A DNA stretch of 64,000 nucleotides from Schmidtea polychroa (taxonomy: Eukaryota), in assembly GCA_044892525.1 (NCBI GenBank), contig CM097887.1, positions 10,912,001 through 10,976,000 on the forward strand, read 5' to 3'. Both the position numbers and the translations under genes were made by a program. The notes beneath the pieces were generated by a model. The model had not been told where the DNA came from. It was given only the letters and a program-made list of their open reading frames with translations, and made no database searches. This document shows positions 10,907-61,900 of this stretch, one piece after another. The first letter of the stretch is position 1. The number at the start of each line of letters is the position of its first letter.

Positions 10907-11051
10907 TAATAATTCAATAAGATATATTTTTCAAAAAAACACTAAAACGAATATTATTCAAACAAAACTTTACATAACTTTTACAAAAGGAGTTTCAAAA
11001 AATCCTTTTTAAATAGAAAAGAAATCAGAGGTGAAAATGAAAAGAAGTTCT

Positions 11052-11163: not shown

Positions 11164-14100
11164 AGACCGAAAGCTTTGACCCATATTGGTGAGCACAATA
11201 AGGGCTGTAAGATTGAAATAGGTATGTCTGATTTTAAAATTTTATTAAAAAATTTCGATAATTATTGCGAACGTGTGATTTGTGAGGCGTTGTTGATAAA
11301 ATAATTGAATCCGAAAATTAATGTGCAGAATGCAGTAGATACTTGTGTTTTGAGTGTTTTTAATAAGTTTTTTATATTGTATGTATTGATTGTTGTATTA
11401 AATTAAATAATTAATAAAAAATTTTTTAAATTATTAAATTAAATTTTAAATGTTAAAATTTAAAAAAAATAATATATTTTTTATAAAATAAAAAAAATTT
11501 ATATAATTAATAAATTTGTTTAAAATCCTTAATTTAATGAGTTATAATATCCCACCGGATGATGACAGGAAAACTGTCGAAATTAATCGCGAAAAGAATG
11601 TTTGATTGGCGTTATCTTATAATTAAATCATTGCCATAAAATCATGTTTCTGCTGTTCCAGTATTCAAAAGATTATTGGAGACTTTTAATGCACTTAGAA
11701 GAAAAGAACTAGACATTTGTTTTCTTGAGACTTGTCTAGAAGAAAAGATGATTCCCTCGTTCATTTTTAAAATGAAACTTAGTGATTGTCTTTCAAGTAA
11801 AGATGTGCAAATAATACATAAAAGAACGTTAAGAAGAATGTTGGAATTAGAGAAGATAAGGAGAACATCCTTGGATAAAAAACTATTGAATATTGGATTT
11901 ACTTTGAATCAAATAACAAATGAGTTTTGTTTGCAGGTATGTGTTGAATGGTGTATTAAAAATTCAATTTCTCAGTTAAAATCAAAAGAGAATGCTCATA
12001 TCAATAAATTAAAAAATTTGAGAAAATTATTTGGGATCTCTAAATTTAGTGTAGAGAATACATTAATAAACATGAGTAAAGTTGTTTTGTCTGAAGAGGA
12101 GGAGCGTATTTTGAAATTTGGTCCCAATCATTCCATTAAGAAAAGAATGGATGAAACAAAATTATGTGCGAAGATTGAAAGTTTATACTTTCATATACTT
12201 AGATCGATGAAGGATATTAATACTAATTATGTGAAGAGTGTGTTGAGTTCGAGTACGATGGAGTATATTGATAAAAATTAAAAGCAGAATATTTAAGATT
12301 TTACTGTATTAAAAAATTTAGCTAAAAAAGACATCAATATATGCAAGTTTGACAAAGGAAATGGATTGGTAATTCTCGACCACAATGTATATGTAAATAA
12401 GCTTTGTGATGTTTTGAACGCTCCCCAGTTTGTGAAAATAGAGATTTCTCGAAAAAATGGAATACAGCCTCCTCTTAAGGAGGAGAATTTGTTGAAAGAA
12501 ATACTAAATAAATTAATTAAAAATAAGCAAATTGATGAAGAGTTGTTTAAATCTATTCGCCCAATGGGATCACAACCATCAAAAATGTGTGGGCTTCCAA
12601 AAATCCATAAAGATGGCGTGCCTATGAGACCTGTTTTATCCATGATTGGCACTGCCCAGTAAAAAATAGCCAAAATTTTGGATGGATTATTGAAACCATT
12701 AATACGATCAGAATTTGAATGTAAAGATAGTTTTGACTTTGTTTCCTGTATTGCACAATATGATAGACAAAGTATGGATGAAATTATGGTTTCGTTTGAT
12801 GTCTGTAGTCTGTTTACTAATGTACCATTGGTTGAAACAATTGAATTATGTTGCTTGTTATGGAATGAAAATATTTCTGAACATCATATTTTGGATAGAA
12901 CAGCATTTCGTGAACTTCTTGTATTTGCAACTTCAAAAATCAATTTTCTTTTCAATAATGAATGGTATCAACAAATAGATGGAGTTGCTATGGATTCTCC
13001 TTTAGCACTAACGATGGCTTCAATTTTTTTAACAAGCTTAGAAAAGAAAATTGCATCTTTCCAATGTATGAAACCCACTGTTTATAAACGGTATGTGGAT
13101 GATATTTTTTTCTTATATTTGAAAATCAGAGGCATGTTGACCCGTTTTTGCATTATATGAATAGTCTACATAAAAACATTGTATTCACATGTGAAACGGA
13201 GAAAAAATCATCGCTTGCTTTCTTGGATCTGTTAATACAACGCAAAGAGAAACACTATGAGACAGAGATTTATAGAAAACCAACTGATACTGGTCTCTAT
13301 ACTTCTTCCGAAAGTTTTTGTGAATTCAAGTATAAAAGAAATATGGTGAAAGGGTTGATTTATCGAGCATGGTCTTTGTCTTCTACTTTTAAAAATTCAG
13401 TAAAAAGTGTTGATATATTGGTTGAATTGTTAATGAAGAACGGTTATTCAAAATCCTTTTTAGTAATTATGGTGAAAGAGACTGTTGACAAATTTATTAA
13501 AAATCCTAAGGATCCATGTTTGAGAAAATCTGGGTGTGATCTTGTTGAGGTGTGTGAGTCTGATGAGTTAAATAAATTAAATAGTGTGAGCAAGGATGAT
13601 GAGCCTAAATTTGTGTTAGTATTGTCGTACTCAGAAGGTTTTAAGGATTATAAAGTGAAGATAAGAAAGCAGTTAGGGAATTTAAACTATAGGATAGTAT
13701 CAACTTCATGGAAAGTACGCAATATGTTTATTAATAAGTCAAAAACTCCGGTTGAATTGTGTTCCGATCTCGTTTATCAGTTTACATGTAATGAGTGTAA
13801 TGCCACATACATTGGAGAGACTTCCCGTCATCTCTGTATTCGAGCTCGAGAACATTGTAGACCGAAGGTTTTGACTCATATTGGTGAGCACAATAAGGGC
13901 TGTAAGATTAAAATTTATATGTCTGATTTTAAAATTTTATTAAAAAATTTCGATAATTATTGCGACCGTGTGATTTGTGAGGCGTTGTTGATAAAATAAT
14001 TGAATCCGAAAATTAATGTGCAGAATGCAGTAAATACTTGTGTTTTGAGTGTTTTTAAATAGGTTTTTTTATATTGTATGTATTGATTGTTTTATTAAAT

Positions 14101-14294
14101 TAAATAATTAATAAAAATTTTTAAATTATTAAATTAAATTTTAAATGTTAAAATTTAAAAAAAATAATATATTTTTTATAAAATAAAAAAATTTTATATA
14201 ATTTATAAATTTGTTTAAAATCCTTAATTTAATGAGTTATTATATCCCACCTGATAATGACCGGAAAACTGTCGAAATTAATCGTGAAAAAAAT
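11164..14294 (+). mobile_element. Near full-length Penelope-like retroelement with two pLTRs (disrupted)
   Basis: pLTR 11164-11637 and about 13860-14294; RT motifs (GLPKIHK, SFDVCSLFTNV, GVAMDSPL, RYVDD) and GIY-YIG (VYQFTC..C.ATYIGETSR). Confidence 0.95.
11598..13999 (+). pseudogene. PLE RT plus GIY-YIG endonuclease ORF, broken
   Basis: ATG 11598 is in frame with ORFs at 11676, 12366 and 12678; in-frame stops at 11637, 12279 and 12660; frameshift near 13110 into ORF 13148-13999. Confidence 0.9.
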
Positions 14295-14789
14295 NNNNNN
14301 NNNNNNNNNNNNNNNNNNNNNNNNNNNNNNNNNNNNNNNNNNNNNNNNNNNNNNNNNNNNNNNNNNNNNNNNNNNNNNNNNNNNNNNNNNNNNNNNNNNN
14401 NNNNNNNNNNNNNNNNNNNNNNNNNNNNNNNNNNNNNNNNNNNNNNNNNNNNNNNNNNNNNNNNNNNNNNNNNNNNNNNNNNNNNNNNNNNNNNNNNNNN
14501 NNNNNNNNNNNNNNNNNNNNNNNNNNNNNNNNNNNNNNNNNNNNNNNNNNNNNNNNNAATGTTGATTAAAACTTTGAAAATAATAATAATTCTAATAATA
14601 CATCTTCCGCGCGGGCGTTAATATCTTTCCCAATAATAATGATAAATTAAATTATTGTGTAATAGATAATTAAAACAAAAAATATTATTATATAATCAAC
14701 GATTAAAACAAAATTAAATTATTACGTAATCGATAATTAAAACAAAAATAAAAATATTATTATATTATCAATGATTTAAACAAAAAGTA

Positions 14790-16170
14790 ATTATTATGAC
14801 CTTCAAACTTGGACCATCATACTCATCATTGAATTACCTTTTGTTTGATATGTATATTATAAGGTTTTAAAAAATTTGAACCTTGGATCCTTTCGAGGTT
14901 ATGATCTATGAGGATATGACCATCTTACTCACCTTTATATTACCTTTTATTTGACATGTATATATCTATATGTATAATTTTGATAGGTTTTGGAGCCTTT
15001 GAAGGTTTGAAGGTTCAGGACCATTCATAAACCTTTGAAAGTATGACCACGATACTTACATCTCAAATACCTTTTGTTTGATATGTATATTATAAGGTTT
15101 TAAATTTTTAACCTTGGACCCTTCGACCCTTGGACCTTTGAACTCACCATCAAAAATAATATGGTTTGAAAAATATGTAATTTTGGACACCCTTTGAAGG
15201 TTATTGACGCACAATATACCTTCGAGGGTATAACCATTAGATAGACCTCTCAAATACCTTTCGAATGATATATATATATATAATTTTATTATTATAATTA
15301 TTATTATTAATTAATTTTATTATTATTCACTTAAATATTATTATTATTTGTCACGTGTAAATTTAACAAAGACATAAAGATGTGAGTAACAAAGACATTA
15401 TTTGTTACTATGTGAGTCATCGATTACTCATCATTTTAGAACAAAGCATAGAGTATGTGTGCGTTAATTTTTTTTATCCTATCTGTATTCTGATTGGATA
15501 GATATTACATATACTCTATGCTTTTCACATTTTCAAAATGGTCGTGGATGAATAAGTAAATTTTAATTATTATGTTTTTAGGAATTATGAAACCAATTTA
15601 TGAATTATGAAATTTTTTTATGAAATCAATTTTTTATGAAGAATATGAATATGTTTTTATAAAGAAAATTATGACACCTATATCAGAAATGGTAATGTTT
15701 TTTTTATGAAATTACTATGTAATTACTTTGAAAAAATAATAATAATAGTAATAATAATAATTATAATAAAATAATAATATTACATTGAAAATAATAATAG
15801 TAATATTAATAATAATACTATTGATAATATCACCTTTGTTCTAGTGGAGTCTGTTCTAAAAAATAGATGATGAATCTTGTGATGAGTCTTTGTTCTAAAA
15901 GGATGAGTCATCGATGAGTCATACACAGGAGGGTAGTATGCAAAAAATCCCCCCCATTTAAACGATGAGTCATCGAAGAGTCTTTGTCTATATGCCTTTG
16001 TTTAAATGTCTTTGTTTAAATGTCTTTGTTTTAATGTCTTTGTTTAAATGTCTTTGTTTAAATATTTGTTTAAATGTCTTTGTTTAAATGTATTTATTTA
16101 AATGTCTTTGTTTAAATTTCTTTGTTTAAATACTTATTTGAATATTTATTTAAATGTCTTTGTTTAGACT
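14790..16170. repeat. Complex repeat family (gacccttcga/ggaccatcatactcatc subunits, GATGAGTC clusters, 14-bp aatgtctttgttta array at about 15995-16170); related copies at 22590-22870 (inverted) and 24900-25912
   Basis: Shared blocks such as ttaccttttgtttgatatgtatattataaggtttt and tagacctctcaaatacctttcgaatgat. Confidence 0.75.
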
Positions 16171-17229
16171 AGATGGTAAACTAGATGGTTTGCAAGTGGC
16201 CTTCATTTAAAATTCTTGTTATCAGCCGTAAACGAATTTGAGTTATGCAGTCTTTCAGCTGATGCTCAGATTCAGATTGAATCATTTAAAAAATATTTAT
16301 CACCATTTGAATGTGTCTTTATGTGTACAATTTGGATGGAGGTTTTGGTTCTATTGTATGAAACAAATTTCATTCTCCAAGCGCGGAAATCAATATTGAC
16401 AACAGAAAAAATTAATATTGATAAACTTATTGAAGATATAAAGGAAATTAAGTCAAAAAAAAATTGCAGCAGCTAATAGCGTTGTTACAGAATTTATTAC
16501 AAATCGTCAAATAAAAGATCAAGTATCTGCAGAAGCATATTTTCACAACCACATTTTTAACGAGATCATTGATTCTATAATAAATGGGCTTACGCAAAGA
16601 TTTAAAGCTGTTTCCTCAATATGCAAATTATTTGAAGTTTTATGGAATTTTAATGAAATGGAAGAGAAGAGCTTAATTGAAACAGCAAGAATTTTACAAA
16701 CAAAATATGAAAATCAAATAGATGAAGAAATTCTGGAAGAATTTAAATTTCTTAAAAGAGTTTATAAATCAAATTTTAAAAGCTACATGAAACCGTGTGA
16801 GCATTTAAAAGAAATAATCGAAATGGGGTTTTTAAATATTTATCCAAATATTGCTATTGCTCTGAGAATATTTTTAGCCTTGCCAGTTAGCGTAGCAGAG
16901 GCAGAGAGGAGTTTTAGCGCATTCAAACGGATAAAAAATTATTTAAGATCAACCATGATACAGGATCATGTAAATGGTCTGGCGACGCTAAATATTAATT
17001 GGGATATAGCTAGAAATTTGGACTATTCTGAAATTATAATTTCTTTTGCAGCTTTAAAAACTCGAAAAGCGCATTTTTAAATTTTAATTAATATTACTTT
17101 GATATTTATACTTTGATATTCGGAATATATTTTTTTATTTTTGAAATAATAAATTTTTTATCAGCAAAAATTTCATTTTTTGTATATTTTTCATTATATA
17201 GGGGGCCACATATAATGTCAGACCTGGGC

Positions 17230-45567: not shown

Positions 45568-48500
45568 TGTTGGGCTGAGTCGAAAATTTAATCGTTGAAA
45601 AATAGGAAAGTAGGGAAGTAGAACATTAAGAAAAATAATAATAAAATAAATAAAATCAGAAATAAAATAGAATAAGATATAAGGAAAATAATAAGTAAGA
45701 CATAAGAATTAAAACAAAAAATAAAATTAAGAAAAGATTAAAATAGAACAAGTTGACAAATAAATAAAGAGGAATTCAAGAAATAATAAGGAAATTAAGG
45801 AAATAAATAGAAAAACATATTAAAAATAAAGAAAATAAGGAAAAAACAACCTAAAAACAAGAAAATTATATTAAATTAATAGAAATAAGCGGTACTCAAC
45901 TCTGATTGGTCCGCACAAATAAGAATTTGATATATATACAACTACCAAAAACATTAAATTTACTGTTAACCCCGAGCATTTCATAGGTAAGAAAAATGTT
46001 TACTGTTGTTTACGGTTAACCCCGAGCATTTCATAGACATCTACAACTCACGGAGACTTATTTCAAGGATCAGCAATACAAGTAGAGCAACAGTTAATTC
46101 GAAAAACTTCACAGCAATTCGAAATCAGTCACAGCAATCGACATTCAACGAACCATCATCAGACTAATTTGGAACGACTAACGTTAATTTTCCGATTCAG
46201 CCTAATTCCATAGTAAGGGATTTTTATTTATGATATTGTTTTTCGAAGTTAATAGTAAATATGTATATTTAATGAGCAATTAAACTTTTAAATTTAACCA
46301 GACTCTCTTTTCATTTGGTCCTGAATAACGATTTTGATAAAGTAAATAATTTAAATGTTTAAAAGTATTTATTGGTAACAGGTGAACTCTTACATAATTT
46401 TTATGGATATTTATTTTGAAGTGATAGTTTCATGATTTCTAATATTAACGAGAAACGTGGCGTTGAGATACTCCATGTCATGGTGTGAGGTGCCTTCGGG
46501 AGCTCAGCCGGTGGACATGGAGTATTTCAATCACGCAGCTAGATTGGGCCGAAATGTGAAGGCTTCTTCACGGGTCCAATTGCTGAAGGACTTAAAATCT
46601 GTCAGAGTACCGAAATATAGACCGAAAGGAAACCTTCTGAAAGTTTCGAAAATAGGATATGTGCTTCACAGCGACTGAGGGAGTTCTCATATTAACTCTG
46701 TATTGTCCAGAGTCGTCTTACAAGACATTCATGCCACTTCTGTCTATAAATCCGAACTTACCATGTGGGGGAAAATACCATTAAACATCCATCGCTGGTT
46801 TTCTAACATATCGAGAAGTTGAAATTGCATTCGGTAGATTTTTGAAAAAGTAACTCTAATTTAGGTCATCTCTTTCAGATGCGACATCCAAATCTTAGCA
46901 TATGATGAGGAATTTACAATAAAGGAAAAGTAAAACATAAAACCACAATAATACTGTATTCAATCACATATATTAACAAAATCTGGTAATACCCATTGAA
47001 TAATTTTCATGCTGTTGCGTCGAAATATCCACTACTGAAATATGCTTCATAGAGTCTAGTTGGCTGGTTCGTAGAGATCTCCCATCGTTCAAAAGCATCC
47101 AATATTGAGGAAATTACGAGTCGTAGTAAATAAATCCGACATCATAAGCTCAGATGGGAATCGACACGCGATGTAACATTTGCAGTTCGCTCAGTACGGT
47201 TGATAGTTACAGATAAAATTTCCATCGAATAGGCACCCATACATACAGACATACTGCTAACATAACTATGAGTAGCGTCATCCGGTCAGAAATATGCATG
47301 AGAAACAGCAGAATCATTCCGAGTGCCTCTCACCGCAGGGAATGCCGCCATGTGTCACCCTCTCTAGGATTCTTAGTGTGTGAGTAGTAATCAGTGGTCC
47401 TATTAGATAATGCTGACATGAGATGTGACTTCCAGATGACTGACTCTTAAATTTCACTACTGATAAAGGCCATTCGTACCACTAAAAAGATAAGCCAAAT
47501 AACCAGTAACCGACTACTAAGATAAGGGACTCTCTAAAGTGCACCCATTAAAGATAATTTTGCTTAAATTAAATATGCTAAATAAAAATCGAAATTGTTG
47601 AAGGGGTATTTTAATTAATAATCGAAAATTCAAACCAAACTTTATAACTAAACCATAGGAAGTTTTACCTAAGTGTTGTAGAGGTTTATCGTAATTCTAA
47701 TTAGATGTTACAAATAATAGTAGTAGCCTTCGAGCCAAATTTAAATTAACTAAAGTATCTACAGGAATTTTTGGGTTATAAAATAGCTAGTAATATTGTA
47801 GTTAAATTTCTCATATTCCCTGTAAATGACGTATTGTAATAGAAAACTAAATCCGATAACAAATTATTATGTAATTACAATATTTTTACGATGCTATATT
47901 TCTACGACGATATCACCGTATGGTATGGATAAGGGGTAATCATAAAATAGTGACGTATAGTTTATACGAAATTACGAGTTGTTACTTATTCCGCTACTTG
48001 AGGTAAGGGTGCAAGTTTTTACTAGTTGCATTTGGTCCAAAAACCTTATTTTGCATTAGAATAACAACAAATAATCAGCGAAATTTAAACGAAGTGTAGT
48101 ATAGTGTATTTGTAATGAAATAGGGTTATTCGCTCCGGCATGAATAAATCCGTAAATTGCCTTTATGTGCGATAGATAGAAATCCAACTCGAACGCGATA
48201 GACGAAAATTAAAATTTTTACAAATAATTTGCATTCGTCAGGGAAGCAATCAGGGCGTTGGGGAATAATTTTCTGTAAAGGATACGTAAAATATTAGTAA
48301 TCAAGGGTGAAGGGAGGGATCCTGTTTCATCGACTCGTCTTGTTTTCTTCCAGCACTAAGTATCCAATAGCGAATAAACCGTATATCTGATCCGAAATTT
48401 TTGGATATAGTCATCATAGTTTTCTTCTTTAGCCATCCATATGTTATCAAACCACAAATCAGCTCTACGTCCCTGCTTCTCCTGCTCAGATAAAAATGCA

Positions 48501-49727
48501 GTGATTAAAGATCTTCAAGCCCAGATCGGTCGATATAAACGAAAAATCGACGAACTGGAAGGGACATGGTTTAGTCCCGCTCGGATGAAGGAGATCCAAA
48601 AGAAGCTCGATCGTAGCGAGCATTGCCGGGACGCGCTAATATCTGAGAGCCGTGCCCAAAGAAGTCTAATCAGAGAACAATCCGAGGCACTGCATAAGGT
48701 TTACGTGCAGGCGGCTACAACCCGAAAAATAGTGCAGATTCCCATCCGAGAGGCCGATGACATCTTTCCGCCTCATCACAACCTTTCCTCGAATCCATCT
48801 CCACCGTTCAAGAGACCGTGCCAAGACTGCGTCGAAAACGAATTGTCCCCCAAGCGACCAGATGTTGTCGTCACGGGTACCAGTAAGCCCCCCACTGCTA
48901 GTCCATCTGTATCAGTCACCCCTCTGCAAGTGGCATCTTCAAGCAAACCCAAGCGCAAACAACTCTCTCGTGCAGAGCGCAAGAAGAGACAGCGCGAACG
49001 CGCCACTACCAAGCCAAACATCCCATCAATAGAGGACTCAACCAACGGTGGCAACTCTCACGTGTCCATCGACCTAACAACGGGACCCTCAGCACGAATC
49101 ATATCAGCCGCTGGCGTAACGTGGGAAGAGAACGCTTCCGAGTTTTTTAACCTCGACGAATTATTCGCCGACGCTGAATGGGAGAAACAATAGAACCCCA
49201 GTGGCGGTCAGGACGAAGAACAAGGATCCGATCTATGTTGATTATGATGTTTTCTCTTCTTTCGACAAACATTAGTAAAGTGTACAGCTGAATCCTTGTG
49301 TCATAACGTTGAAATTAATAAATCTTGTTGTCTTACACGTTTTCGTTCATGAATAATTAGACTTTAATTAAGTGGGTTGAGTAGAGAACCCGCCAGATCT
49401 AGTGAGAAATTCCCAATTTGTATTCAGCGAATCCTGATAAGTGGTTGTGTAAGGAAAAGGACGTAAGCCCTTCTAACGGCAGTCGTGAATGGGAAGTCGA
49501 GGCCTCAGCAAGGAGTAGTTTTAAGGCAGAAGCTCACCTGCTTGCTGGCGTCTCGCCTGCATAGTGCAGTACCAACGTGAAGTGATTCACGGGCACTATG
49601 TTGGAAGAAAGTTATGTGGGGTTTCACTCCAGGTTGACAAATCGGTGGCACCTTTTATTCGAGATGGACAATCAACCCTTAGACCCGTCAACATGGTAGA
49701 GTGGTCAGCCGAGGTGTAACCCCAACA
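45568..49727 (+). repeat. Candidate 5' LTR, 4160 bp
   Basis: Starts TGTTGGG and ends CCCAACA (perfect 7-bp inverted termini, TG..CA); PBS 7 nt downstream; AATAAA at 49317-49322; partner LTR not in window. Confidence 0.7.
48441..49193 (+). CDS. LTR-encoded protein of unknown function (250 aa; CxxC, coiled coil, basic patch, acidic/aromatic tail)
   Basis: Intact ORF with higher GC than its flanks; preceded by TTTCTTCTTTAG (48421-48432), followed by AATAAA. Confidence 0.65.
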   Translation: MLSNHKSALRPCFSCSDKNAVIKDLQAQIGRYKRKIDELEGTWFSPARMKEIQKKLDRSEHCRDALISESRAQRSLIREQSEALHKVYVQAATTRKIVQIPIREADDIFPPHHNLSSNPSPPFKRPCQDCVENELSPKRPDVVVTGTSKPPTASPSVSVTPLQVASSSKPKRKQLSRAERKKRQRERATTKPNIPSIEDSTNGGNSHVSIDLTTGPSARIISAAGVTWEENASEFFNLDELFADAEWEKQ

Positions 49728-49734
49728 TGATTTT

Positions 49735-49752
49735 TGGGGGCTCAGCCGGGAT
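49735..49752 (+). promoter_or_regulatory. Primer-binding site, tRNA-Pro
   Basis: TGGGGGCTCAGCCGGGAT, 16/18 to the classical tRNA-Pro PBS TGGGGGCTCGTCCGGGAT. Confidence 0.85.
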
Positions 49753-50065
49753 CTACAATCGATCGAAATTTCTATTAACGAATGCGAAATTCACCGGGAT
49801 TTTCATAAAAAATTAAAGGGATTTATCACATCGATTTTCTGTTTTCGACCGACCATTGCTTGACGAATGCCAATTAACTATTGATTATTAAATTATATTA
49901 GGAACTAAGTAGAGAAAATCAAAATGTAGATAATAGAAAAATTAAGGATATAAATAAAGGAGATAAAGTAGTCAAATTAAATAATTAACAATGGTTAAAG
50001 AAACCAATTAACGAATTAACTATTAATTTACTACATATTATTAAAACATTACTTTTCCAACAGCT

Positions 50066-50551
50066 ATGACAGAATTCGCGAACCAAATGCAACAACTGCT
50101 CAAGTGGATCGATATAGAAAACGACTCCCTAACAACACTGACGCATAAAAGAGAAAAAATCAACGCGATATTACTGCAAGCAATCGGACAAACACCAGTC
50201 GTACCTAATCATATGATATTAGCCACAGGCCTAAGTCGCCCAGATGGAAAAATAAACCCCGAAACCGTATATCAGTGGTATCAAGAGAGATTGAACCACC
50301 CAACATTAAATCTAGATTATCAGCGTCTAAAAGACTCACTAAATACAATACCAGATGCAATCGAACAAAAAATACAGGAAAAAGTTAACCAATTACGAAC
50401 TTGTATAGCCTGCAAACTCCGTCCTATTCGCGTATTATTCTTGCCGTGTGGACACCTCAGTCACTGTGAAGAGTGTGTAAAAGACCTAAAAAGATGCACG
50501 ATGTGCAAATATGAAATAAAAGAGACCCATATGGTCTATTATGGCGAATGA
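50066..50551 (+). CDS. RING-finger protein (IAP/MDM-type C3HC4_3 RING at the C-terminus), 161 aa
   Basis: CIACKLRPIRVLFLPCGHLSHCEECVKDLKRCTMCKYEI; acceptor-like TTTTCCAACAG just before the ATG; AATAAA at 50656-50661. Confidence 0.85.
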   Translation: MTEFANQMQQLLKWIDIENDSLTTLTHKREKINAILLQAIGQTPVVPNHMILATGLSRPDGKINPETVYQWYQERLNHPTLNLDYQRLKDSLNTIPDAIEQKIQEKVNQLRTCIACKLRPIRVLFLPCGHLSHCEECVKDLKRCTMCKYEIKETHMVYYGE

Positions 50552-51129: not shown

Positions 51130-51719
51130 CGAGCTGTCGAATAATCCAGCCGGTCAAGGAGGAAGATTGAGCTGTTGAATAGTGCCAGCCAGTCGTAAGG
51201 TCGAGTTGTGAAAAAGTCCAACCGATCAGGAAGGAGGAAGATTGAGCTGTTGAATAGTGCCAGCCAGTCGTAAGGTCGAGTTGTGAAAAAGTCCAACCGA
51301 TCAGGAAGGAGGAAGATTGAGCTGTTGAATAGTGCCAGCCAGTCGTAAGGTCGAGTTGTGAAAAAGTCCAACCGATCAGGAAGGAGGAAGATTGAGCTGT
51401 TGAATAGTGCCAGCCAGTCGTAAGGTCGAGTTGTGAAAAGTCCAACCGATCAGGAAGGAGGAAGATTGAGCTGTTGAATAGTGCCAGCCAGTCGTAAGGT
51501 CGAGTTGTGAAAAGTCCAACCGATCAGGAAGGAGGAAGACTGAGCTGTTGAATAGTGCCAGCCAGTCGTAAGGTCGAGTTGTGAAAAGTCCAACCGATCA
51601 GGAAGGAGGAAGATTGAGCTGTTGAATAGTGCCAGCCAGTCGTAAGATTGAGTTGTTGAATAGTCCAACCGATCAGAAGGAAGAAGATTGAGCTGTTGAA
51701 TAGTGCCAGCCAGTCGTAA
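51130..51719. repeat. 74/75-bp tandem array, 8 copies plus a degenerate lead-in, in the element leader
   Basis: gagctgttgaatagtgccagccagtcgtaa recurs at about 51170, 51245, 51320, 51394, 51468, 51542, 51616 and 51690. Confidence 0.95.
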
Positions 51720-52975
51720 AGGCCTAGAAAAGCGAGAGATAGCAGTTAAGCTACAATGAGATAATATTTAAATTACTAGTGATATGGAATATTAAAGCTA
51801 GCTAGAACAAATTGAATGTAATTTTGAAAATTCGAGTTTAGAGAGGAAATAAACGAGCTCGTGGAAAAGAAAATAGGATTATAATGAAAAAGGAAAGGGA
51901 AGAAGGAAACGAATTAAAGAGATAATAGAAAATAAAGAATAGATGAAACGATGATAATGAGTAAAGAGGAAAGTAACTAACTAACTAAAGGGATCCCAGT
52001 GAAGTAGAGAAACTCTACGGAATATTTTTTTTGGTTAAACCGGGAAAATGCATTTTATTGGTTCCAGAGTAGAACCGAGCGTAATAATAATGAATATGAA
52101 AAGTAAAATAGCGACAACAGCGCAAAAGGATTAGGAAAATGAAAGGGGGGTAATAAGCAGAGACCGACAACGACCTATTTTTACTATAATTGATAACGAA
52201 TAGATAATTATTACGACTTTATAGATAATTGTTACTACCCCATATAGATAATTTAAAATCGACGGAAAATACGGGCTGATGGGATATTATAACCCGCAGA
52301 AAGGATTTCACAAAAGATAGGGGAAGCACAAACAGAAACCTAAAAGGTGTCTGTTTTTGAACGTTGTAGAAAGAATGATGAAGTCGTGTAAGCAAATGCA
52401 ACACGAGATCATTTTTTCATTTTAGATATCAAGCCAATCCAGCCAACCAAGACAATCCAGAACCTGCACAAAAGGAATTCGAAGAAATCGACAATCAACC
52501 AAGGATAAATCCATTCAGAACCCGCACCGAGAGACACAGCAACCGGAAGACTCCCGAACGGAAGAAGTATTAGCAGCCATCTGCCAAGGATTAGAAACAC
52601 AATCAGAACCGAACGCGACCAATTCAATAGCCGCTAATTACCAAGAAGCGTAAGAAAGGAATCACGGATAAACCCAATCTTAGATCTTCAAGTAAGCCAG
52701 GAGACGTATTATTTTCAGGAGACGAATTACAACAACTCAAAAGAGGACGATCCATTAAACATCAAAGAGGAATATCACAAGGATCCAGAAGAACCAATCA
52801 AGTACCCATATTTGACCAAGAAAATCTCGGATATACCCCTAGTCGATCTCGAAGTAGAGAAAGTCTGTCCGATATCACTAATAGTTTAGCAACGTCAACC
52901 GAAGAATTATCAGCCCAAAGTTTAGTCACATCGTTAGACAATTTAAAAGAAACAGACGAACCTAGAACACCAATC

Positions 52976-55900
52976 ATGACGAATGTCGTAAAAACCGACG
53001 AGTATAAAGAGAAGTTCAGAGGAGAACCGTTCAACGGAAATGCAAACAAGCTAGCAACGTTCATAACTAATTTTGAAGTTTATATCACTGTGTGTGGATG
53101 GACACCCGAAGCAATTAGTAAAAGGATGCCGTTGTTTTTGTGCGATAGTGCATTAGAGGTATATTTAGAAGCTAAAGAGAGAGACACGAAATTAGAAAAG
53201 TGGGAAGATATTAAAACATTCCTGAAGAAAACCTTCGGAGCCAGTAAGCCAATCAACCAGGCGTTGGGCGAACTAGCAAATAGGAAACAAAGAGCAAACG
53301 AATCGATAACATTATATGCCAGTGAATTGCGGAGATTAGCGAAGAAAGCAATGAATGGAAAATTACCCGAAGAAAATCTGATCGGTTATTTCATAGAGGG
53401 ATTACGCCGAGAAGAAGTAAGAGCCTCAGTAGGTTGTCAAATGTGCAAAACATTAGAGGAAGCCATAGATTGGGCTACAAGATGCGAGCTCCACCTTCCA
53501 GCTCAAATGAATATTATGCAAGAGGAGGGAAGGATAGCGACAGCAATAGCGAAAGCGGATAACGGAGATAACAACAATCAAGAACCGAAAATGAATCAAT
53601 TTATACCAGGAGCGCACCAAATTTTCAAACCACCACAAGGACGATCAAACGGGAATAATGGTAATCGTAACAACCCGAATAATGAGAACAATTTCAATAA
53701 TCGGCGAAATATGAACGATAACAAGCAGTGCCGAACATGCGGTAAACCAGGACACTGGGACAGAGATTGTTATAGAAATTCAAATTGTAATCGTTGCGGA
53801 CGGCGTGGACATACCGAAAATGTATGCCAATTGCGAGGCTGTTTTAACTGTGGTCAGCCAGGTCACATCTCCAGAGATTGCCGAGAAAGGGGCCAACAAC
53901 AACGACCACCACAGCGAAATAATAATTGTATAGCGAATCCGCAACGACAAAGTAACCCTAACGAAGGAAAACAAATGAACGTTATGCAGGAAATTTCGCA
54001 GATGAAACAGATGATGCAACAAATGATGAGACCAAGACAAGAATCAGCACCACAACAAACCCAGAATATACGTATGATGAGGAGTACCGAAAATCTCAAC
54101 AATTATGAAGTGCATCAACATGTACAAGAATGGCAAAGGCTACAGGCCGAGGAAGAGAGGATAAAACAAGAACGCAACCAACAACGACAAGAACAACCAT
54201 TGCGAATAAATATGATGAAGTTAGTAAAAGACATGAAGAGCCAGTATTGCTACAATTACGGGAAAAGCCCAAGGGTAGTACCCACGACTGAACCAGAAAA
54301 GGTAAAAGAAATAACAACGGAAATGGAAACAGAGAATTCAACCACGATTTTAAAAGGAAACCAGAGAATTCAGAAAATATTCTGGAAAAAGATAAAGGAT
54401 AAAATCGAAAAAGAACATAATAAAGCGAAAACCGAGACAGAAGATGAAAATAACAAGAGCAAGGAACAAACCAGTCAACTAAACCACCAAATGCTACAAG
54501 AATCAGAATCAGAAGAAACAACAATATTCGAAAGAAAGAAACTAAAGAGAGTACCAAGGATGAGAAACTTGCAAATCAATATGATGAAAAGGACAAAAGA
54601 TGTAGCATCGTCAGACGAAGAAGAAGATTATGTAAGTAGTTTGGGTGGAGAAATACTACAGCCGAATGAAATAAGCGAACCCCCAAAAGGGGAAATCAAA
54701 GAGGAAGAAAGCGGAAACGAGATAACCAGTGAAAGTGAAAACGAAGATATCGAAATAAAGTTGAGAAAAGCAAGGGAGGAAGCGATAAAACAGGTAGCCG
54801 AAATACTCCCAGTAGTAGTGAGAAACCAAGAGTTCATCGACGTAATACCATTCAGGCGATTCGTGCAAAAAGTGATGAAATTGGAAAGAAACGAGAAAGA
54901 TCTAATACCAAACGAGGAAAAATCAATTATAAAAAATTATATGGAAAAAATGAAGCAGGCCGATACCACGCGGTATGTAATAAAAATTGGAACGAGTAGA
55001 GGACTTGAAAGAATGTGGATAAAAAATACAGTCACCGACGAACTTTTCGATTGGATACGAGAGCATTTGGGAAGTTCGAGAAAGAAAGAATATCTGTATC
55101 AATACCAAGGAGAACAGATCAAACCAGATATGCACTTAGTAGATGCACTAATATGGCCAGGAGAAACGCAAATACTGAAGTTGCATAAAGAAAAACAACC
55201 AGCCAACCTTTACGATTGGGCTAAAGATGCCAAGGCAGAATATGATTTTAATATCAAATTGAAATTAGAACAAATAAAACAATGTACTCTGAGACGAAAC
55301 CTGGATAAGCTGATCAAACAAATTCAAGAACAAGTAGAAGACAACTGGGATTTACTCATCACCAGACGAGCCCCAGCCATGTACGAACTAATGAGCCGGT
55401 TGCGAGATACAGAAATGCTCCGAATGAGTGATTGGAGAACCATAAATTTGATCCACAAATATGGAAGGTTAAAAGAAACCCAGCCACAGAGGTTAGAAAT
55501 AACCATATGGTTACCGAACGAAGAAAAACGACGAATAAAAATGAGCAATCAGAGTACAGTAGATGACTTGGTATCAAAAATAAACCAAGAGATAACGGAA
55601 AAGGTACGTAGCGAAAGTAGTGATGGTATGGTGGATGATGTAGTCATGATGTACGATAAGATAATATTACGAGCGGAGGACGACACCTCGTTAAGCGAAA
55701 TGGGTATGTGGGACAATCACCAGATAATCAGGATAGTACCAATGGATGAATTTCGAACAAGAGATGTAACCTATCAAAAAGAAATACGAGACCGGATGAA
55801 AACGTTATATCAAAAATCTACGGAAATAATTAAAATCCACCAACAATGGTTAAAAGAAAAAGAACTACAAGGAAAAATCACGAAATTAAGCACCAGATCC

Positions 55901-58900
55901 TGCAGACGAACCCCATGGGAAAGAGTGTGGAATGCAGAAAGTAAGGAATGGGAAATCCGGAAAGGAACCTTCGTGGAAACAGACATTGGTGAGACAGAAA
56001 GTGAATCGGAGGAAGAAGAAGAGGAACCTCCAAAATATGAAGAGGAAGCAAGGGAACAGACATCAGATGACGAAGGCGAGACGGATGTCACATCAGAAAG
56101 CGAAAATGAAGCGAGACATATTCATGCAATGAGGAAAAAGGAACGTGAATATGCTGATATGGACGGCGAGGAAGCGACGGAAGCAAGAGAACGAGAAGAG
56201 AAAGAAAGATATAAACAATTAGGCGATATCTTAGCAATGGGAGCGAAAAATCAAAAACGCCAAGTAGTAGCGTTGGCTAACATCATCTTAAAGACATCAG
56301 AGAATATCCACAATCTGAGAGGAATGGCAAAGGCAATAGAGGAATACCGGCAATATAATGAATGGTATCCAGAACAGCTAGAACAAATTATTCGAAAATG
56401 GAGAAATCAGGAATGGGCACAAGACACCCAGGAGAGGTATCACATCCGAATCAAGTATCCGGACAAGAGCATCGAGGAACTAGAGGTGCATCCAACAACA
56501 AAAATTAGAGAATTAAAAAAGAAATTAGCATATGAAACTCCATTCCATCTGCAACTGTTCGGAAAATCACTAGACGATAATGCAGACGTCGGGATAACAC
56601 CCATGAGATTGGAAGAGACAAATGTATTAACAATGGCAGAAACGTTGGGAAAACCGTTAAAAAGGAAAAGTAAAATTATTAAACCAACAAAAGGCAGTTT
56701 GAGTACTCCAAGTCCGAACAAAGCACCAAGTAAATCTAATGAAACTGAAGAAGTTGAAGAGATAATCCTGGAAGATAGTGACGATGAACCAGGAGAAAGA
56801 TCACCGCTATTAGTGAGATGGCCGACAGGAGCCGAAATGTGGACTAATAACCAGCCATCAACGAGTTATCAACAACCAACGAAACTGAACATCAAAGAAA
56901 TCATCGACAATACTACGGAAACCGAAACGGATGAACAATTCCAGAAGCAAAGAGAACCAACGAAAGTAACACCAGAAAGTCAAACCGACAAAATAATAGA
57001 CGAATGGAATGAGTGGCTAAGAAATAACGATAGCTCATTACCCAGAACGGATAACGAAAGAAATCCGAATTACGAAAATACCAGAGAAGCCGGAACGATG
57101 ATGGAAAAACGGGCAAAAGGAAGACCGAAGAAACAAGGAGAAAAGTCTGAGTTCAAAACCAAAGAACAATTAAAGCAAGAACAAGGGCAAGTTCGATTAG
57201 AAAAATTGGATAAAATAGTATGGGATCTAAAGGAAGCCCAACCAACGATCGAAAGAGGAGAAAAATGGATACGAGAATTGTTAAAAGATATGTTAATAAT
57301 AACAAACCCACAACTTAGACGTTTGTGGCAACGGAAAGTAGCCAGTACGGAAGCTAGACAATTATGGCACACCATTTCGGGGATAATCCCAAAGTTAATC
57401 AAAGAGAAAACGAAAACCACCAAAACGGATTGGGACGAAACAAAGAAAGTGATTGAGCAGCTCACGACAAATGCAAACGATGACGAACATCACCTAGTGG
57501 TAATCACGTATTTGATGTATAATTTGATGGGACTAGCTGCGAGGAAAATACCAAATAAACAATTTGCAAATCATGTGGAAATGACCGTTTCAATCATAGA
57601 GAATACTATTGAACCACATATTATTCGTGCCGGAGGATGGAAAAGACTGATACAAGCGCCACGGAAAAATGAGCAAGAAAGGTCGATGCAAGTTAGATTG
57701 AAAAAACTGTTAAATGAACTAGAATGGGAACTACCGATGAAAGATCCCGCAAGCAGAAAAGCATCAATAAATTCGTTAATGATGACTATGATGATATGGA
57801 TGTTGTGCACAAGTGGAGCAACGGGTTTCACCATCTACGATTGTGATAACATGATAATGAGAGATAAATACTCATTGAGAGACATAGAAGAATGCAGACA
57901 AGCCTCACCCAACAAATTGGACATCGTGAGAACAAAAGTTACTTACCATGTATATCAAGAATCAGACTTCATCAGAACGCAAGCAAGGGAATGCGTAGTA
58001 TCAAAAAAGGTACTCGCATATTACTGTGGACAATATTCGTATTCGACTCTTATACTACCCGGTCTGGATAAAGAAATCGTATCAATACAACGAGAGGATT
58101 GTAAAGAGCTATTTAGAACCGGAGCGCTAAAAATGCATAACGGAGTGACAATTCACGGACAAACTGGAATGATTAAAACCGAAAGTGTTTACGTATCCGG
58201 AAAAGTAAAATCATCAGATGGGTCATGTAACGGGGGGACGTATACGATCCGAGGCGAGGTAATATCGGGAGTTGTAGTGATCGAGTCTTACACGGTCGAA
58301 TTAAAAGAATACGAAGCGCAATTTGACGCAAATAATTACCAAATGAAGACCAACCCAGCGTGTAAAGCTACAGAAAACGTATGCAGGACAGGAGTATCAA
58401 CTATAATCTATGAAGCTAATACCCAAAAATGCCGACTCCAACTGTTAAAAAGTGCTTTGTTCAATGAAGTAAAAGGAGAAATATATGAGAACGAGAACGA
58501 CGAGGATGGAAACGACAGAGTGAGAATGCGAAATGGAAAACCAATGCCACCATCTCCCAGAGAAAAGAGACTTTCAACGCAGAAGACACCAACAGCATTA
58601 ATCACAGACGATCCAGATCTAGGTATGAGATTTATCAAAGAGAAAGAAACCACCAAATGTGACAGTATAGTATATAAAACCAATTACGCAGGTATCTACA
58701 TGTCGAGACAAATAATCGATAGAGCAGTGGGAAAGATAGCAACGGAGGACGTAAAACTATACTTATATGCAAATAATAAAATGGATTTTCTATTTCATCG
58801 TGGACAAACGACCTTGCAAAAAGTATATTACGATCTGATACAAAACGATTGTTCATTGAATAAAGAAATATTGAAAACAAAGCTAGCTATTGCGATAACG

Positions 58901-61900
58901 CACCCCGATAACACGATGCCATCACTCCCATTACCAGATGGACACTTTGGTAGAATGGTAGGAGAAGTGATGTACACATACCAGTGTACCAAGACGTATG
59001 CACGAATGCCAGAAAAATCCATACTACCCGAAAAGAGATGTGCAAATGAATTAGAAATTCGTTATAAAGGACAAAATCGATTCGTCCAACCAGTCACTAG
59101 AATTATGAATCCAGTGGGTTTCTACCCAAATCTCTTTAACTGTTCTAATGCATACGGACCTTTGTATGAAAGACCCGATGGGAAATGGATGATGTTACCG
59201 GGAAAAACCATATCCGAGGAACCCAAGAAATTTGGATTAATAGAACTCGCCACAGAGCTGGATTTCAAACCTATAGACGTGTCAAACGGTGGTATGTATT
59301 CCCCAGAAGATCTAGAAACAGCACGACTTAACGTACTCTTCCCAGCCAGACGAGAATCCATTTTGTCTAATATGGTCACAATAACTGGGGGCACAAACTA
59401 TCAATCAGGCCCGAATTACGAGCTGCTATTATCGCCAGACCATTTTCAACAAGCTACGTCAAACATGATGAAAGCAATGTGGGGAAGATTCTTAGTTTTT
59501 GGACAAATGATGGCCGGGATATTAGGGATCATACTCATAATTCAGATAGTCAGAGTAATACTAACACAAATGTTAGCTTGTTTCGATATATACAAGCGGG
59601 AAAAGAAAGTTAATTGGAAAATGATAGTAGGTTTCTTACCATTTTTAGCTAAGACCATGGTATTACATGGCCACTCAAAAGACATCCATCGGATAAAGCG
59701 ATTGATAAAAATATTAACAAAGATTAAAGGAACCGACGAAGAAGTAGGCAGACGATTCCGGAAAGTAATGTACGATGAAGCAACAAGACGACAATTGAAA
59801 AAGAATAAGCCAAAATTCTTGGACCGATTTAGAAGCCAATCATCTAACAGCGATAGTGACGACGATGATAACGGGAACGATAAATGTCTTTATCCAAACA
59901 GAAACCCAAACGAAAAACCAATGGAAACGGCACCATATTGGGAAAAGGAAAAGACAAACACCTGGATCGCCAATGGAAGCTATATACCACCGGATATCGT
60001 GGGACCACAAACAGCTTTGACCATGACACAAAATATGTATCCGCAATTACCGAGTCAACCCGGTATGCATTATATGCCAACACGACGTACCAAAAGTGTA
60101 GATCAAGCAGATGACGTAAGAACAATAGCAGCGATGAGTTTACCTGGAGGTCCAGCAGTGACAGTCATGATCCAAATCAATGGTAAAGAAACCAATGCTA
60201 TGATAGACACAGGAGCTAATGTATCGGCGATAGCGATTAATCAAATTCCCAGTAAACACTGGAAAGATATCGAATCAACAACAATTCACATCATAGCATG
60301 TAGTAAAGAAACAGTGGACGTGGTCGGAAGATGGTGGACTACATTGAGATACCAGGACAACGAAATTGAAACGTATTTGGCAGTAATACCAAAACTTAGC
60401 GTACCATGCATAATCGGAACGGATTTGATGCCAGAATTGTTAAAAGAAGTCGTAATTGACTTAACAACCATGTGTTTAAAAGACAAAACCGGTAGAATAT
60501 GCAAAATGAATGCAGTCATCAGATGTCCAGAAAAAATAATAGTACCAGCAAAATCGCAGATGATTTGTCAGATAAAAGTGGATACGGGTATGGAAGGAGA
60601 AGTTATCTTTGAACCAAGCAAGTCATTCGAAAAGCGACGAGAATTACCACTCGCAAGAGAAATAATCACAATAAACCAAGAAGGAGTGATACCGCTCAAC
60701 ATCACGAATTTCGAAGAGGAAGACAAAATCATTTATGAGAACGAAAAATTGGGAAGATTGACCCCAATGATGGACATAGAATTACCGAAAGTGACCAACG
60801 AGATGATCAAAGATGATGAATTATGGACAATGGATAGTATGTTGTTGACGAATGATGAAAAGAAAAAATTGCACCGATTGTTGGTAGAATATAAAGATAT
60901 ATTCGCCATCTCAGACTTAGACTTGGGTACATGCGATGTTACCCTACATGCAATACCCCTCATAGATGAAACTCCAATTGCATTAAGACCATACAAGCTA
61001 GCAGAAATGCAAAAAGAAATAGCCGAAGCAGAAGTACAAAAGATGCTAGACGCAAAAGTAATCGAACCAAGTTGCTCACCCTGGCAATTCCCAGTGGTCA
61101 TGGTAAAAAAGAAAGATGGCACCCAACGATTCTGTATCGATTATCGGAAGTTAAACGCAGTGACCAAGAGAGATACCTATCCATTGCCGGACATCAATGA
61201 GATGTTATTGATGTTGCAAGGGGCAGCATATTTTACTTCTCTAGATCTAAAAAGTGGATACTGGCAGATTAAAGTCAAAGATGAGGACAAAGAGAAAACA
61301 GCTTTCACGTTGGGACGAGATCTATATCAATTCAGGAAAATGCCATTTGGACTGACTAACGCACCAGCATCATTTCAACGGTGTATGAACTTTGTCACCC
61401 ATGGAATCAAACAATGTATGGTATATATTGATGATTTACTAATCTATTCAGCGACATTTGAACAACATCTAGAAGATATCCGAAACGTATTTATTAGATT
61501 AAGACAGTGGAAACTCAAACTCAAACCATCAAAATGCGATTGGGCAAAGGAAAAAGTCACGTTTTTAGGACACATAGTGTCAGCTAAAGGAAAGGAGCCA
61601 GATCCAAGAAACATTGAGAAAATAAAAACATGTCCAGCACCGAAAACTGTCACCCAAGTTCAGGAATTTCTAGGATTATGCGGATACTATCGCAAATTTA
61701 TCAAAAATTATGCAGGAATTGCAAAACCAATCCAGGAACTAGTAAAGAAGGACATTTCGTTCTTATGGGGGAAGGAACAACAAGAGGCGTTTGAAACGCT
61801 GAGAGACAAACTAATCGAAGCACCTATCCTCGTACACCCAGATTTTAAGAAGCCATTTCTATTGGCAACGGATGCAAGCGGGTACGCGGCAGGCGCGATT

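What the first reader, a model, noticed from the sequence alone, without database searches (positions are those of the whole stretch)
57190..57660. Bcl-2-like domain in a retrotransposon polyprotein
A helical segment of about 150 aa ends in IEPHIIRAGGWKRLI (57608-57652), matching the BH2 signature (e.g. Bak IARWIAQRGGWVAAL). It is preceded at the expected distance by a degenerate BH1-like NDDEHHLVVITYLMYNL and followed by a hydrophobic stretch, like a Bcl-2 tail anchor. Viral Bcl-2 mimics are established in large DNA viruses; I know of none in an LTR retroelement. It could keep host cells alive during particle production.
Basis: partly seen in the sequence, partly recalled or inferred. Interest (0 to 1): 0.85.

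Follow-up and report, generated by a model that had tools for sequence, protein, structure and literature searches.

The report
Bcl-2 fold in planarian giant retrotransposon
A giant virus-like jumping gene carries a divergent copy of the cell-death regulator Bcl-2 just before its envelope protein, likely to help keep its host cell alive, and a Bcl-2-like motif at this place has already been reported for the planarian "Burro" elements.

Summary
The segment lies in the 4,732-codon Gag–Env–Pol frame of a 30.45-kb Ty3/Gypsy element with identical 4,160-bp LTRs, the layout of planarian Burro elements, whose BCL2-like motif is in print (PMC6431247, citing Grohme 2018).

A model built only from element sequences (pLDDT 68) matches Bcl-2 folds: all 31 chains with Z>=8 are Bcl-2-type, best Z 13.4, first unrelated 6.2. 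Five divergent families in this genome keep the domain directly before Env; GGW was present in 10 of 10 loci picked without reference to Bcl-2. Purifying selection is strong in this family (pN/pS 0.065).

Two corrections. The BH1 NWGR signature is gone in all five families, so canonical BH3 binding is not shown. The hydrophobic tail is registered to Env, not BH2: likely Env's signal peptide, doubling as an ER anchor.

Most likely it is an ER-tethered, non-canonical survival factor (about 50%); a structural or innate-signalling role remains open. This scan found the same thing before on another piece of this genome (e1-8073723).

The parts
45568..49727 (+). 5' LTR, 4,160 bp, TG...CA ends; the 3' LTR lies beyond the window (G000:C3, ending at 10988021); 4-bp target duplication GTAA; element 30,454 bp
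   Evidence: 100% identity to L011:8862-10000 and L012:1-3021; junctions
50045..50551 (+). Accessory ORF ending in a C3HC4 RING of IAP type, without a BIR domain
   Evidence: PF13920 E 3.7e-11, no BIR hit; 30% identical to the RING end of the BIR-RING ORF of family E
52631..64000 (+). Single Gag-cargo-Env-Pol-ankyrin frame, 4,732 codons stop to stop, first Met at 52976, ends beyond the window (L011:3829)
   Evidence: Pfam Retrotrans_gag, zf-CCHC, RVP, RVT_1, RT_RNaseH, rve, Ank
56120..56131 (+). Last candidate cleavage site for the element's protease before the Bcl-2 domain (inferred)
   Evidence: [IM][NH][MVIA]M occurs 6 times versus 0.23 in shuffles; pattern chosen after inspection; other copies fall near the capsid/nucleocapsid and integrase/ankyrin borders
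56435..56650 (+). Ubiquitin-like domain upstream of the Bcl-2 domain (weak)
   Evidence: PF00240 E 0.0033, below cut-off; 45% identical in family E
57110..57130 (+). Basic GRP[RK] motif (AT-hook- or NLS-like; label recalled) 155-174 residues before BH2
   Evidence: present in families A, E, B and in P0002; not found in C, D
57248..57664 (+). Bcl-2-fold domain (predicted): alpha1 57260-57304, alpha2 57347-57403, degenerate BH1 zone 57458-57514, BH2 57608-57652
   Evidence: AlphaFold2 model pLDDT 68, pTM 0.67; VIA-align best Z 13.4, rmsd 3.0, 136 aligned
57764..57820 (+). Internal signal peptide of Env (predicted), likely left behind as membrane anchor of the Bcl-2-bearing product
   Evidence: basic n-region, 13-residue hydrophobic core, constant spacing to Env in five families; assigned by hydropathy, no signal-peptide predictor was available
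57821..59563 (+). Env: Monjiviricetes-type fusion glycoprotein ectodomain and transmembrane helix (about 59483-59563)
   Evidence: PF24664 E 1.4e-70; hydropathy peak at 59507
60200..63600 (+). Protease, reverse transcriptase, RNase H and integrase in Ty3/Gypsy order (bounds approximate)

Best explanation
This is a divergent Bcl-2-fold domain (fold predicted, homology shown by profile) inside the polyprotein of a Burro-type giant Ty3/Gypsy element, likely captured once from a host gene, and it likely works as an ER-tethered factor that keeps the element's host cell alive by binding host BH3-type helices through a non-canonical groove. Shown: position between a ubiquitin-like domain and Env in one open frame, conservation in five families, purifying selection, loss of NWGR. 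Inferred: the internal signal peptide sends Env into the ER lumen; signal peptidase cuts near 57820; the signal stays as the C-terminal anchor of the upstream product, as with hepatitis C virus core; Env's transmembrane helix returns Pol to the cytosol; the element's protease frees a product of about 560 residues (Ubl-linker-Bcl-2-anchor) from Gag. Untested: binding to host Bak/Bax-type or Beclin-type helices, and protection from death. Identity as a Bcl-2-fold domain of a Burro-type element about 0.95; anchor topology about 0.7; survival function about 0.5.
For: Fold: 31 of 31 chains with Z>=8 among 48,161 are Bcl-2-type; best Z 13.4 over 136 of 152 residues; first unrelated Z 6.2; the alignment behind the model held only element sequences, no templates. 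Sequence: element-only profile ranks Bcl-xL/Bcl-2 constructs in all 60 shown of 139 PDB hits (best E 3.6e-5). Without family B, which was found through Pfam Bcl-2, best E is 0.0014 on the BH2 end. hhalign to 7 Bcl-2-type ORFs of the genome gives P 95.6, E 1.1e-8. Conservation: GGW just before Env in 10 of 10 loci found by Env or BIR searches, at 15-33% identity to the window. Selection: A versus A' pN/pS 0.065 (95% bootstrap 0.031-0.11), B 0.21, E 0.056. Context: the element also carries an IAP-type RING ORF and a TRAF-like ORF, and a BIR-RING protein of Burro1 is reported to protect stem cells from caspase-mediated death (PMC13465017 passages citing Lee et al. 2026). Precedent for binding without BH motifs: deerpox DPV022 lacks recognisable BH motifs yet binds Bak, Bax and Bim (PMC11209288 passage).
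Against: NWGR, which supplies the Arg that pairs with the BH3 Asp (PMC7719400 passage), is absent in 5 of 5 families; in the window it reads D-D-E-H, acidic where the groove should be basic. The alpha3 region is short and low-confidence in the model (residues 78-83). The hydrophobic core is short for a tail anchor (best 19-residue mean 1.27 in this family) and points to the ER, not mitochondria. Selection is not specific to the domain: the neighbouring linker is about as constrained (dN/dS 0.039 versus 0.019, both with saturated dS), and in family C the domain is near neutral (0.54, interval 0.25-1.28). Vaccinia A52, A46 and B14, which have this fold but by my recall act on signalling, also match (Z 7-9).
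Confidence: 0.5

Rival explanations
1. Structural co-option: the Bcl-2 fold serves as a matrix-like, membrane-facing adaptor that ties the Gag precursor to the ER and to Env during particle assembly, with no role left in cell death.
For: It sits at the same place, just before the Env signal, in all five families, while the other cargo tested moves or is absent: MATH is inside the polyprotein in E but in a separate downstream ORF in A; BIR is in E, not found in A. Its tree groups A+E and C+D as the Env tree does. NWGR is lost everywhere. The topology anchors everything upstream to the membrane, as for hepatitis C core (PMC5402940 abstract).
Against: The domain diverges faster than Env between families (35% versus 54% for A-E), unusual for a core structural part. 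Candidate protease sites separate it from capsid and nucleocapsid. No virion data exist here.
Confidence: 0.22
2. Innate-signalling inhibitor of the poxviral A46/A52/B14/K7 kind: a Bcl-2 fold without a working groove that binds TRAF, kinase or adaptor proteins on its surface.
For: Groove signature lost; A52, B14, A46 and N1L are among the fold matches; the element carries TRAF, RING, ubiquitin-like and ankyrin parts. The function of these poxviral proteins is from my recall.
Against: It matches cellular and anti-apoptotic viral Bcl-2 proteins better (Z 12-13.4) than A52/B14/A46 (Z 7.1-9.4), and it keeps a BH2 that matches Bcl-xL by sequence.
Confidence: 0.2
3. A decaying relic kept only because it lies in frame between Gag and Env.
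For: Near-neutral pN/pS in family C; the flanking linker is also constrained.
Against: 73 synonymous against 15 non-synonymous differences between A and A'; fold and BH2 kept across families only about 36% identical in Env and Pol.
Confidence: 0.05
4. Chance resemblance of an unrelated helical bundle to BH2.
For: The window sequence alone scores below the Pfam cut-off; the single-sequence model (pLDDT 52) matched unrelated bundles best.
Against: families B and D reach Pfam Bcl-2 E 5e-7 and 3e-5 on their own.
Confidence: 0.03

Closest known systems
Burro / GYPSM1 giant Ty3/Gypsy LTR elements of planarians (PMC6431247 section 7, read in full; Grohme 2018 and Jurka 2007 known only through it)
   Same: Over 30 kb with long LTRs; one polyprotein of about 4,700-5,100 residues; Gag with three CCHC knuckles; ubiquitin-like domain; BCL2-like motif; mononegavirus-type Env in frame between Gag and Pol; ankyrin repeats; RING and MATH/TRAF cargo.
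   Different: In this element MATH sits in a full TRAF-like accessory ORF downstream of the polyprotein and no BIR was found. Family E in the same genome (MATH in the polyprotein, BIR-RING ORF) fits the Burro1 description better. Sequence identity to published Burro-1 to -4 was not tested.
GAG-ENV-POL HSV/gB-type errantiviruses of Platyhelminthes, Nematoda and Bryozoa (PMC13524379; passages and a supplement search)
   Same: Gag-Env-Pol order in Ty3/Gypsy elements; Env ectodomain flanked by a signal peptide and a transmembrane helix.
   Different: That paper shows no occurrence of 'bcl' in the main-text count or in the supplementary files searched; it does not treat the cargo.
Viral pro-survival Bcl-2 mimics without clear BH motifs (vaccinia F1L, deerpox DPV022, myxoma M11L; PMC11209288 passages, PMC2836074 listing)
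   Same: Bcl-2 fold at 8-14% identity, degenerate BH1, carried by a selfish replicon.
   Different: Those are stand-alone genes of large DNA viruses with shown BH3 binding; this one is a polyprotein module whose anchor is likely the Env signal peptide, and no binding is shown.
Cellular multi-BH Bcl-2 proteins (Bcl-xL, Bak, Trichoplax trBcl-2L2)
   Same: Helical bundle around a central hydrophobic helix; BH2 with GGW; best structural and profile matches.
   Different: No NWGR, no BH3 L-x3-G-D motif in alpha2, no free tail anchor.

Membership tests
Burro-type giant Ty3/Gypsy element | Length over 30 kb with multi-kilobase LTRs | tested here: met
   30,454 bp, LTRs 4,160 bp and 100% identical, TSD GTAA
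Burro-type giant Ty3/Gypsy element | Single polyprotein with Gag, in-frame Env between BCL2-like motif and protease, then RT-RNase H-integrase and ankyrins | tested here: met
Burro-type giant Ty3/Gypsy element | Ubiquitin/SUMO-like domain before the BCL2-like motif | tested here: inconclusive
   PF00240 E 0.0033, below cut-off; family C E 0.00019
Burro-type giant Ty3/Gypsy element | dUTPase-like region between protease and RT | tested here: inconclusive
   no Pfam hit for 60470-60820; the published call was by HHpred
Burro1 / GYPSM1 specifically | BIR domain, and MATH inside the polyprotein | tested here: not met
   No BIR hit in the frames scanned; MATH is in an accessory ORF. Both are met by family E. 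Not filed as Burro1.
Burro1 / GYPSM1 specifically | Sequence identity to the published elements | not testable with these tools
   reference sequences not held
Bcl-2 fold superfamily | Helical bundle around a central hydrophobic helix | tested here: met
   predicted model; Z 13.4, rmsd 3.0, 136 aligned; 31 of 31 chains at Z>=8 are Bcl-2-type
Bcl-2 fold superfamily | BH2 motif with GGW | tested here: met
Canonical pro-survival Bcl-2 proteins | BH1 NWGR with conserved Gly and Arg | tested here: not met
   absent in 5 of 5 families; not filed as canonical
Canonical pro-survival Bcl-2 proteins | Pfam PF00452 gathering score | tested here: not met
   15.5 bits against 31.4 for the window; one family-B copy reached 32.2 in the genome search
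Canonical pro-survival Bcl-2 proteins | C-terminal tail anchor | tested here: inconclusive
   hydrophobic segment present but registered to Env and short
Canonical pro-survival Bcl-2 proteins | Binds BH3 helices and blocks mitochondrial permeabilisation | not testable with these tools
Pro-apoptotic Bak/Bax-type effectors | BH3 motif (L-x3-G-D) in alpha2 | tested here: not met
   no match in alpha2 of any of 5 families

The most novel reading that the evidence does not exclude
The Bcl-2 fold has been turned into a fixed structural module of these enveloped retroelements: fused to Env's signal peptide, it anchors the Gag-side precursor to the ER like a matrix or flavivirus-type core anchor. That would explain why it is kept at one position across five families while its BH3-binding signature is gone.
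Probability: 0.22. Interest if true: 0.7.

Novelty: already known. Interest (0 to 1): 0.3.

Why it matters
Known in outline since 2018-2019, so it is not a discovery. What this check adds is modest but usable: fold-level support for a motif call, its presence in compact (3,050-3,330-residue) families as well as giant ones, the loss of NWGR, and the likely double use of the Env signal as anchor. Since Burro1's IAP is reported to protect planarian stem cells, a second, older and more widely shared death-pathway module is an obvious and testable next target. My searches found no structural or functional test of it, but the two papers most likely to hold one (Grohme 2018; Lee et al. 2026) could not be read.

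Tried and rejected
Single-sequence AlphaFold2 model (pLDDT 51.7): best matches were unrelated bundles (Z 9.5), BHRF1 ranked 24th; inconclusive. Foldseek against predicted viral structures: 0 of 318 matches at E<=0.001, though the top named rows are mostly viral Bcl-2 and E1B 19K proteins. Foldseek against the PDB never ran. Protein database searches: none; one relative, P0002, 55% identical and ending before BH2. ESM Atlas: no usable hit. None of these blanks shows absence outside this genome. Complex prediction with a host BH3-like helix: tool not available, no verdict. Expression: no RNA holder listed; contigs of two runs guessed to be RNA lay on the region at mostly 90-95% identity, which does not show transcription. 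Donor gene: a 73-column tree puts the 8 element rows on one side of a branch with weak support (79/81); donor unresolved. A genome tRNA search was not followed up, so the primer tRNA is unassigned. The GGW invariance in alignment A1 (15 of 15) is partly by construction, because the rows were cut around GGW; I rely instead. Rows left out of A1: L044, L047-L050, L052-L054, L058, L060, L034 (near-copies or truncated). Ribosomal_L17 Pfam hit (E 0.02-0.03): rejected, seen in 1 of 15 rows.

Full report
Observation. That frame is 4,732 codons stop to stop. It reads Gag (Retrotrans_gag, three CCHC knuckles), a long cargo region, a Monjiviricetes-type fusion glycoprotein (E 1.4e-70), protease, RT, RNase H, integrase and ankyrin repeats. 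Comparing the two downstream stretches separately with the window gave a 4,160-bp LTR pair, 100% identical, with TG...CA ends and a GTAA target duplication: a recent 30,454-bp insertion. All 150 scored of 898 first-look candidates in the genome match the domain at 93-100% identity, many in frames of the same 4,732 codons. Accessory ORFs include an IAP-type RING upstream and a RING-zinc-finger-MATH (TRAF-like) ORF downstream.

Is it Bcl-2? Alone, the window sequence is a sub-threshold Pfam hit (15 bits), and large protein searches gave only one truncated relative. The genome supplied the relatives. A Pfam Bcl-2 search found family B (frames of about 3,050 codons). An Env search found C (3,334) and D. 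A BIR search led to E. B, C and D are about 36% identical to the window in Env, E about 55%. In 10 of 10 loci of C, D and E, picked without reference to Bcl-2, the segment before Env ends in a BH2-like GGW. The families align almost without gaps from alpha4 to BH2 at 15-33% identity. A profile of element rows only ranks Bcl-xL and Bcl-2 constructs in all 60 shown of 139 PDB hits (best E 3.6e-5). Leaving out family B weakens this to E 0.0014 on the BH2 end. AlphaFold2 on the 15-row element alignment gave pLDDT 68, pTM 0.67. Against 48,161 solved chains, all 31 with Z>=8 are Bcl-2-type, best Z 13.4 (rmsd 3.0, 136 of 152 residues). The first 37 rows are Bcl-2-fold proteins by title or, for some vaccinia entries and row 36 whose title is cut, by my recall; the first unrelated row has Z 6.2. 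The tool warns that helical bundles can reach Z 13 by chance; the whole-domain coverage and the clean run of one family are what carry the call.

What is lost. The BH1 NWGR, whose Arg pairs with the Asp of a bound BH3 helix (PMC7719400 passage), is missing in all five families. B still reads G-V-N-R-D-K, the window N-A-N-D-D-E-H. No BH3 motif is present in alpha2. So it is a Bcl-2-fold homologue, but neither a canonical pro-survival member nor a Bak/Bax-type effector. Divergent viral mimics such as DPV022 bind Bak, Bax and Bim without recognisable BH motifs (PMC11209288 passage), so binding is not excluded.

Selection. Between the window and its 93%-identical sister family the domain shows 73 synonymous and 15 non-synonymous differences; pN/pS is 0.065 (0.031-0.11), B 0.21, E 0.056, C 0.54 with an interval that includes 1. 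The linker beside it is constrained too in A, so selection shows the domain is maintained, not what it does.

The tail. The hydrophobic stretch at 57764-57820 follows a basic patch, has a 13-residue core, and ends 7-8 residues before Env's first conserved YDC motif in 6 of 7 rows (5 in one), while its distance from BH2 varies from 25 to 53 residues. It is best read as Env's internal signal peptide (by hydropathy; no predictor was at hand). In hepatitis C virus, the E1 signal stays behind as the ER anchor of core (PMC5402940 abstract). By that analogy the Bcl-2 domain would end up on the cytosolic face of the ER, with Env in the lumen and Pol returned to the cytosol by the helix near 59507. A repeated motif, picked after inspection, occurs 6 times against 0.23 expected and falls near known domain borders; if it marks protease sites, the mature product starts near 56130 and has about 560 residues. 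These steps are inferred.

Mechanism. I put about 0.5 on a non-canonical survival factor, 0.22 on a structural anchor for assembly, 0.2 on a poxvirus-A52-like signalling inhibitor, and little on relic or chance. For the first: best fold matches are cellular and anti-apoptotic viral Bcl-2 proteins, BH2 is kept, and the cargo is death- and ubiquitin-related. For the second: fixed position in all five families and the same grouping as the Env tree. The donor gene is unresolved.

Prior knowledge. PMC6431247 section 7 (read in full) describes planarian Burro elements: over 30 kb, one polyprotein of 4,873 residues, a BCL2-like motif noted by Grohme 2018, a ubiquitin-like domain before it and in-frame Env after it. 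It calls the anti-apoptotic role worthy of experimental confirmation. Lee et al. 2026 is known to me only through passages of PMC13465017: the BIR-RING protein of Burro1 protects stem cells. Neither Grohme 2018 nor Lee 2026, nor their supplements, could be read; either may already treat the fold or function. PMC13524379 (passages and supplement search) lists Gag-Env-Pol elements in flatworms without mention of Bcl. PMC11463336 (passages) says flatworms keep Bak as their only pro-apoptotic member. That the host is a planarian is inferred from the element type. This element lacks BIR and has MATH outside the polyprotein, so it is a Burro-type family rather than Burro1; family E fits Burro1 better.

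Verdict. Real feature, correct fold, already known; function open. Interest 0.3.

Noticed in passing
L028-L033, L041, L042 (match near 1500-1810) and L035-L040: Two further multi-copy groups of Bcl-2 genes lie in repeated DNA that is not these LTR elements. One appears to carry an intron (76-97% DNA identity between loci). The other is a 152-codon ORF beside a TBP-like ORF (PF00352 E 2e-14). Both lie next to a similar-looking unknown ORF of about 140 residues. Possibly a DNA-virus-like or Maverick-type mobile element.
   Followed up: partly
L062:643-1818 and at least 149 other places: A 392-codon BIR-RING (IAP) ORF downstream of pol in family E, in many near-identical copies; likely the counterpart of the reported B-IAP.
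   Followed up: partly
window 50045-50551: RING-only relative of that IAP, without BIR, placed upstream of gag; could be a stand-alone E3 ligase or a spliced exon.
   Followed up: partly
L011:4387-5823: Complete TRAF-like ORF (RING, zinc fingers, coiled coil, MATH) inside the element, followed by three coiled-coil ORFs and one with a signal-like start.
   Followed up: partly
window 51156-51751: Tandem array of eight 74-75-bp units between the RING ORF and gag.
   Followed up: no
window 48420-49193: A 257-codon open frame lies inside the LTR, so it is present twice per element; no clear Pfam family.
   Followed up: no
window 49735-49752: Primer-binding-site-like sequence 7 bases after the 5' LTR; it resembles a tRNA-Pro site by recall, not tested.
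   Followed up: no
window 54974-55200 and 55493-55747: Two more segments that look ubiquitin-like by eye; the second has only faint Pfam support (E about 0.1), the first none.
   Followed up: partly
window 6540-10930 (minus strand): An ordinary small Ty3/Gypsy element with separate gag and pol frames; also Penelope-like RT and hAT-like fragments at 11640-17080, by inspection of the translations.
   Followed up: no
L013-L019 (G000:C4, about 89.9-90.9 Mb): Cluster of at least seven near-identical Bcl-2-like genes with intact NWGR.
   Followed up: no
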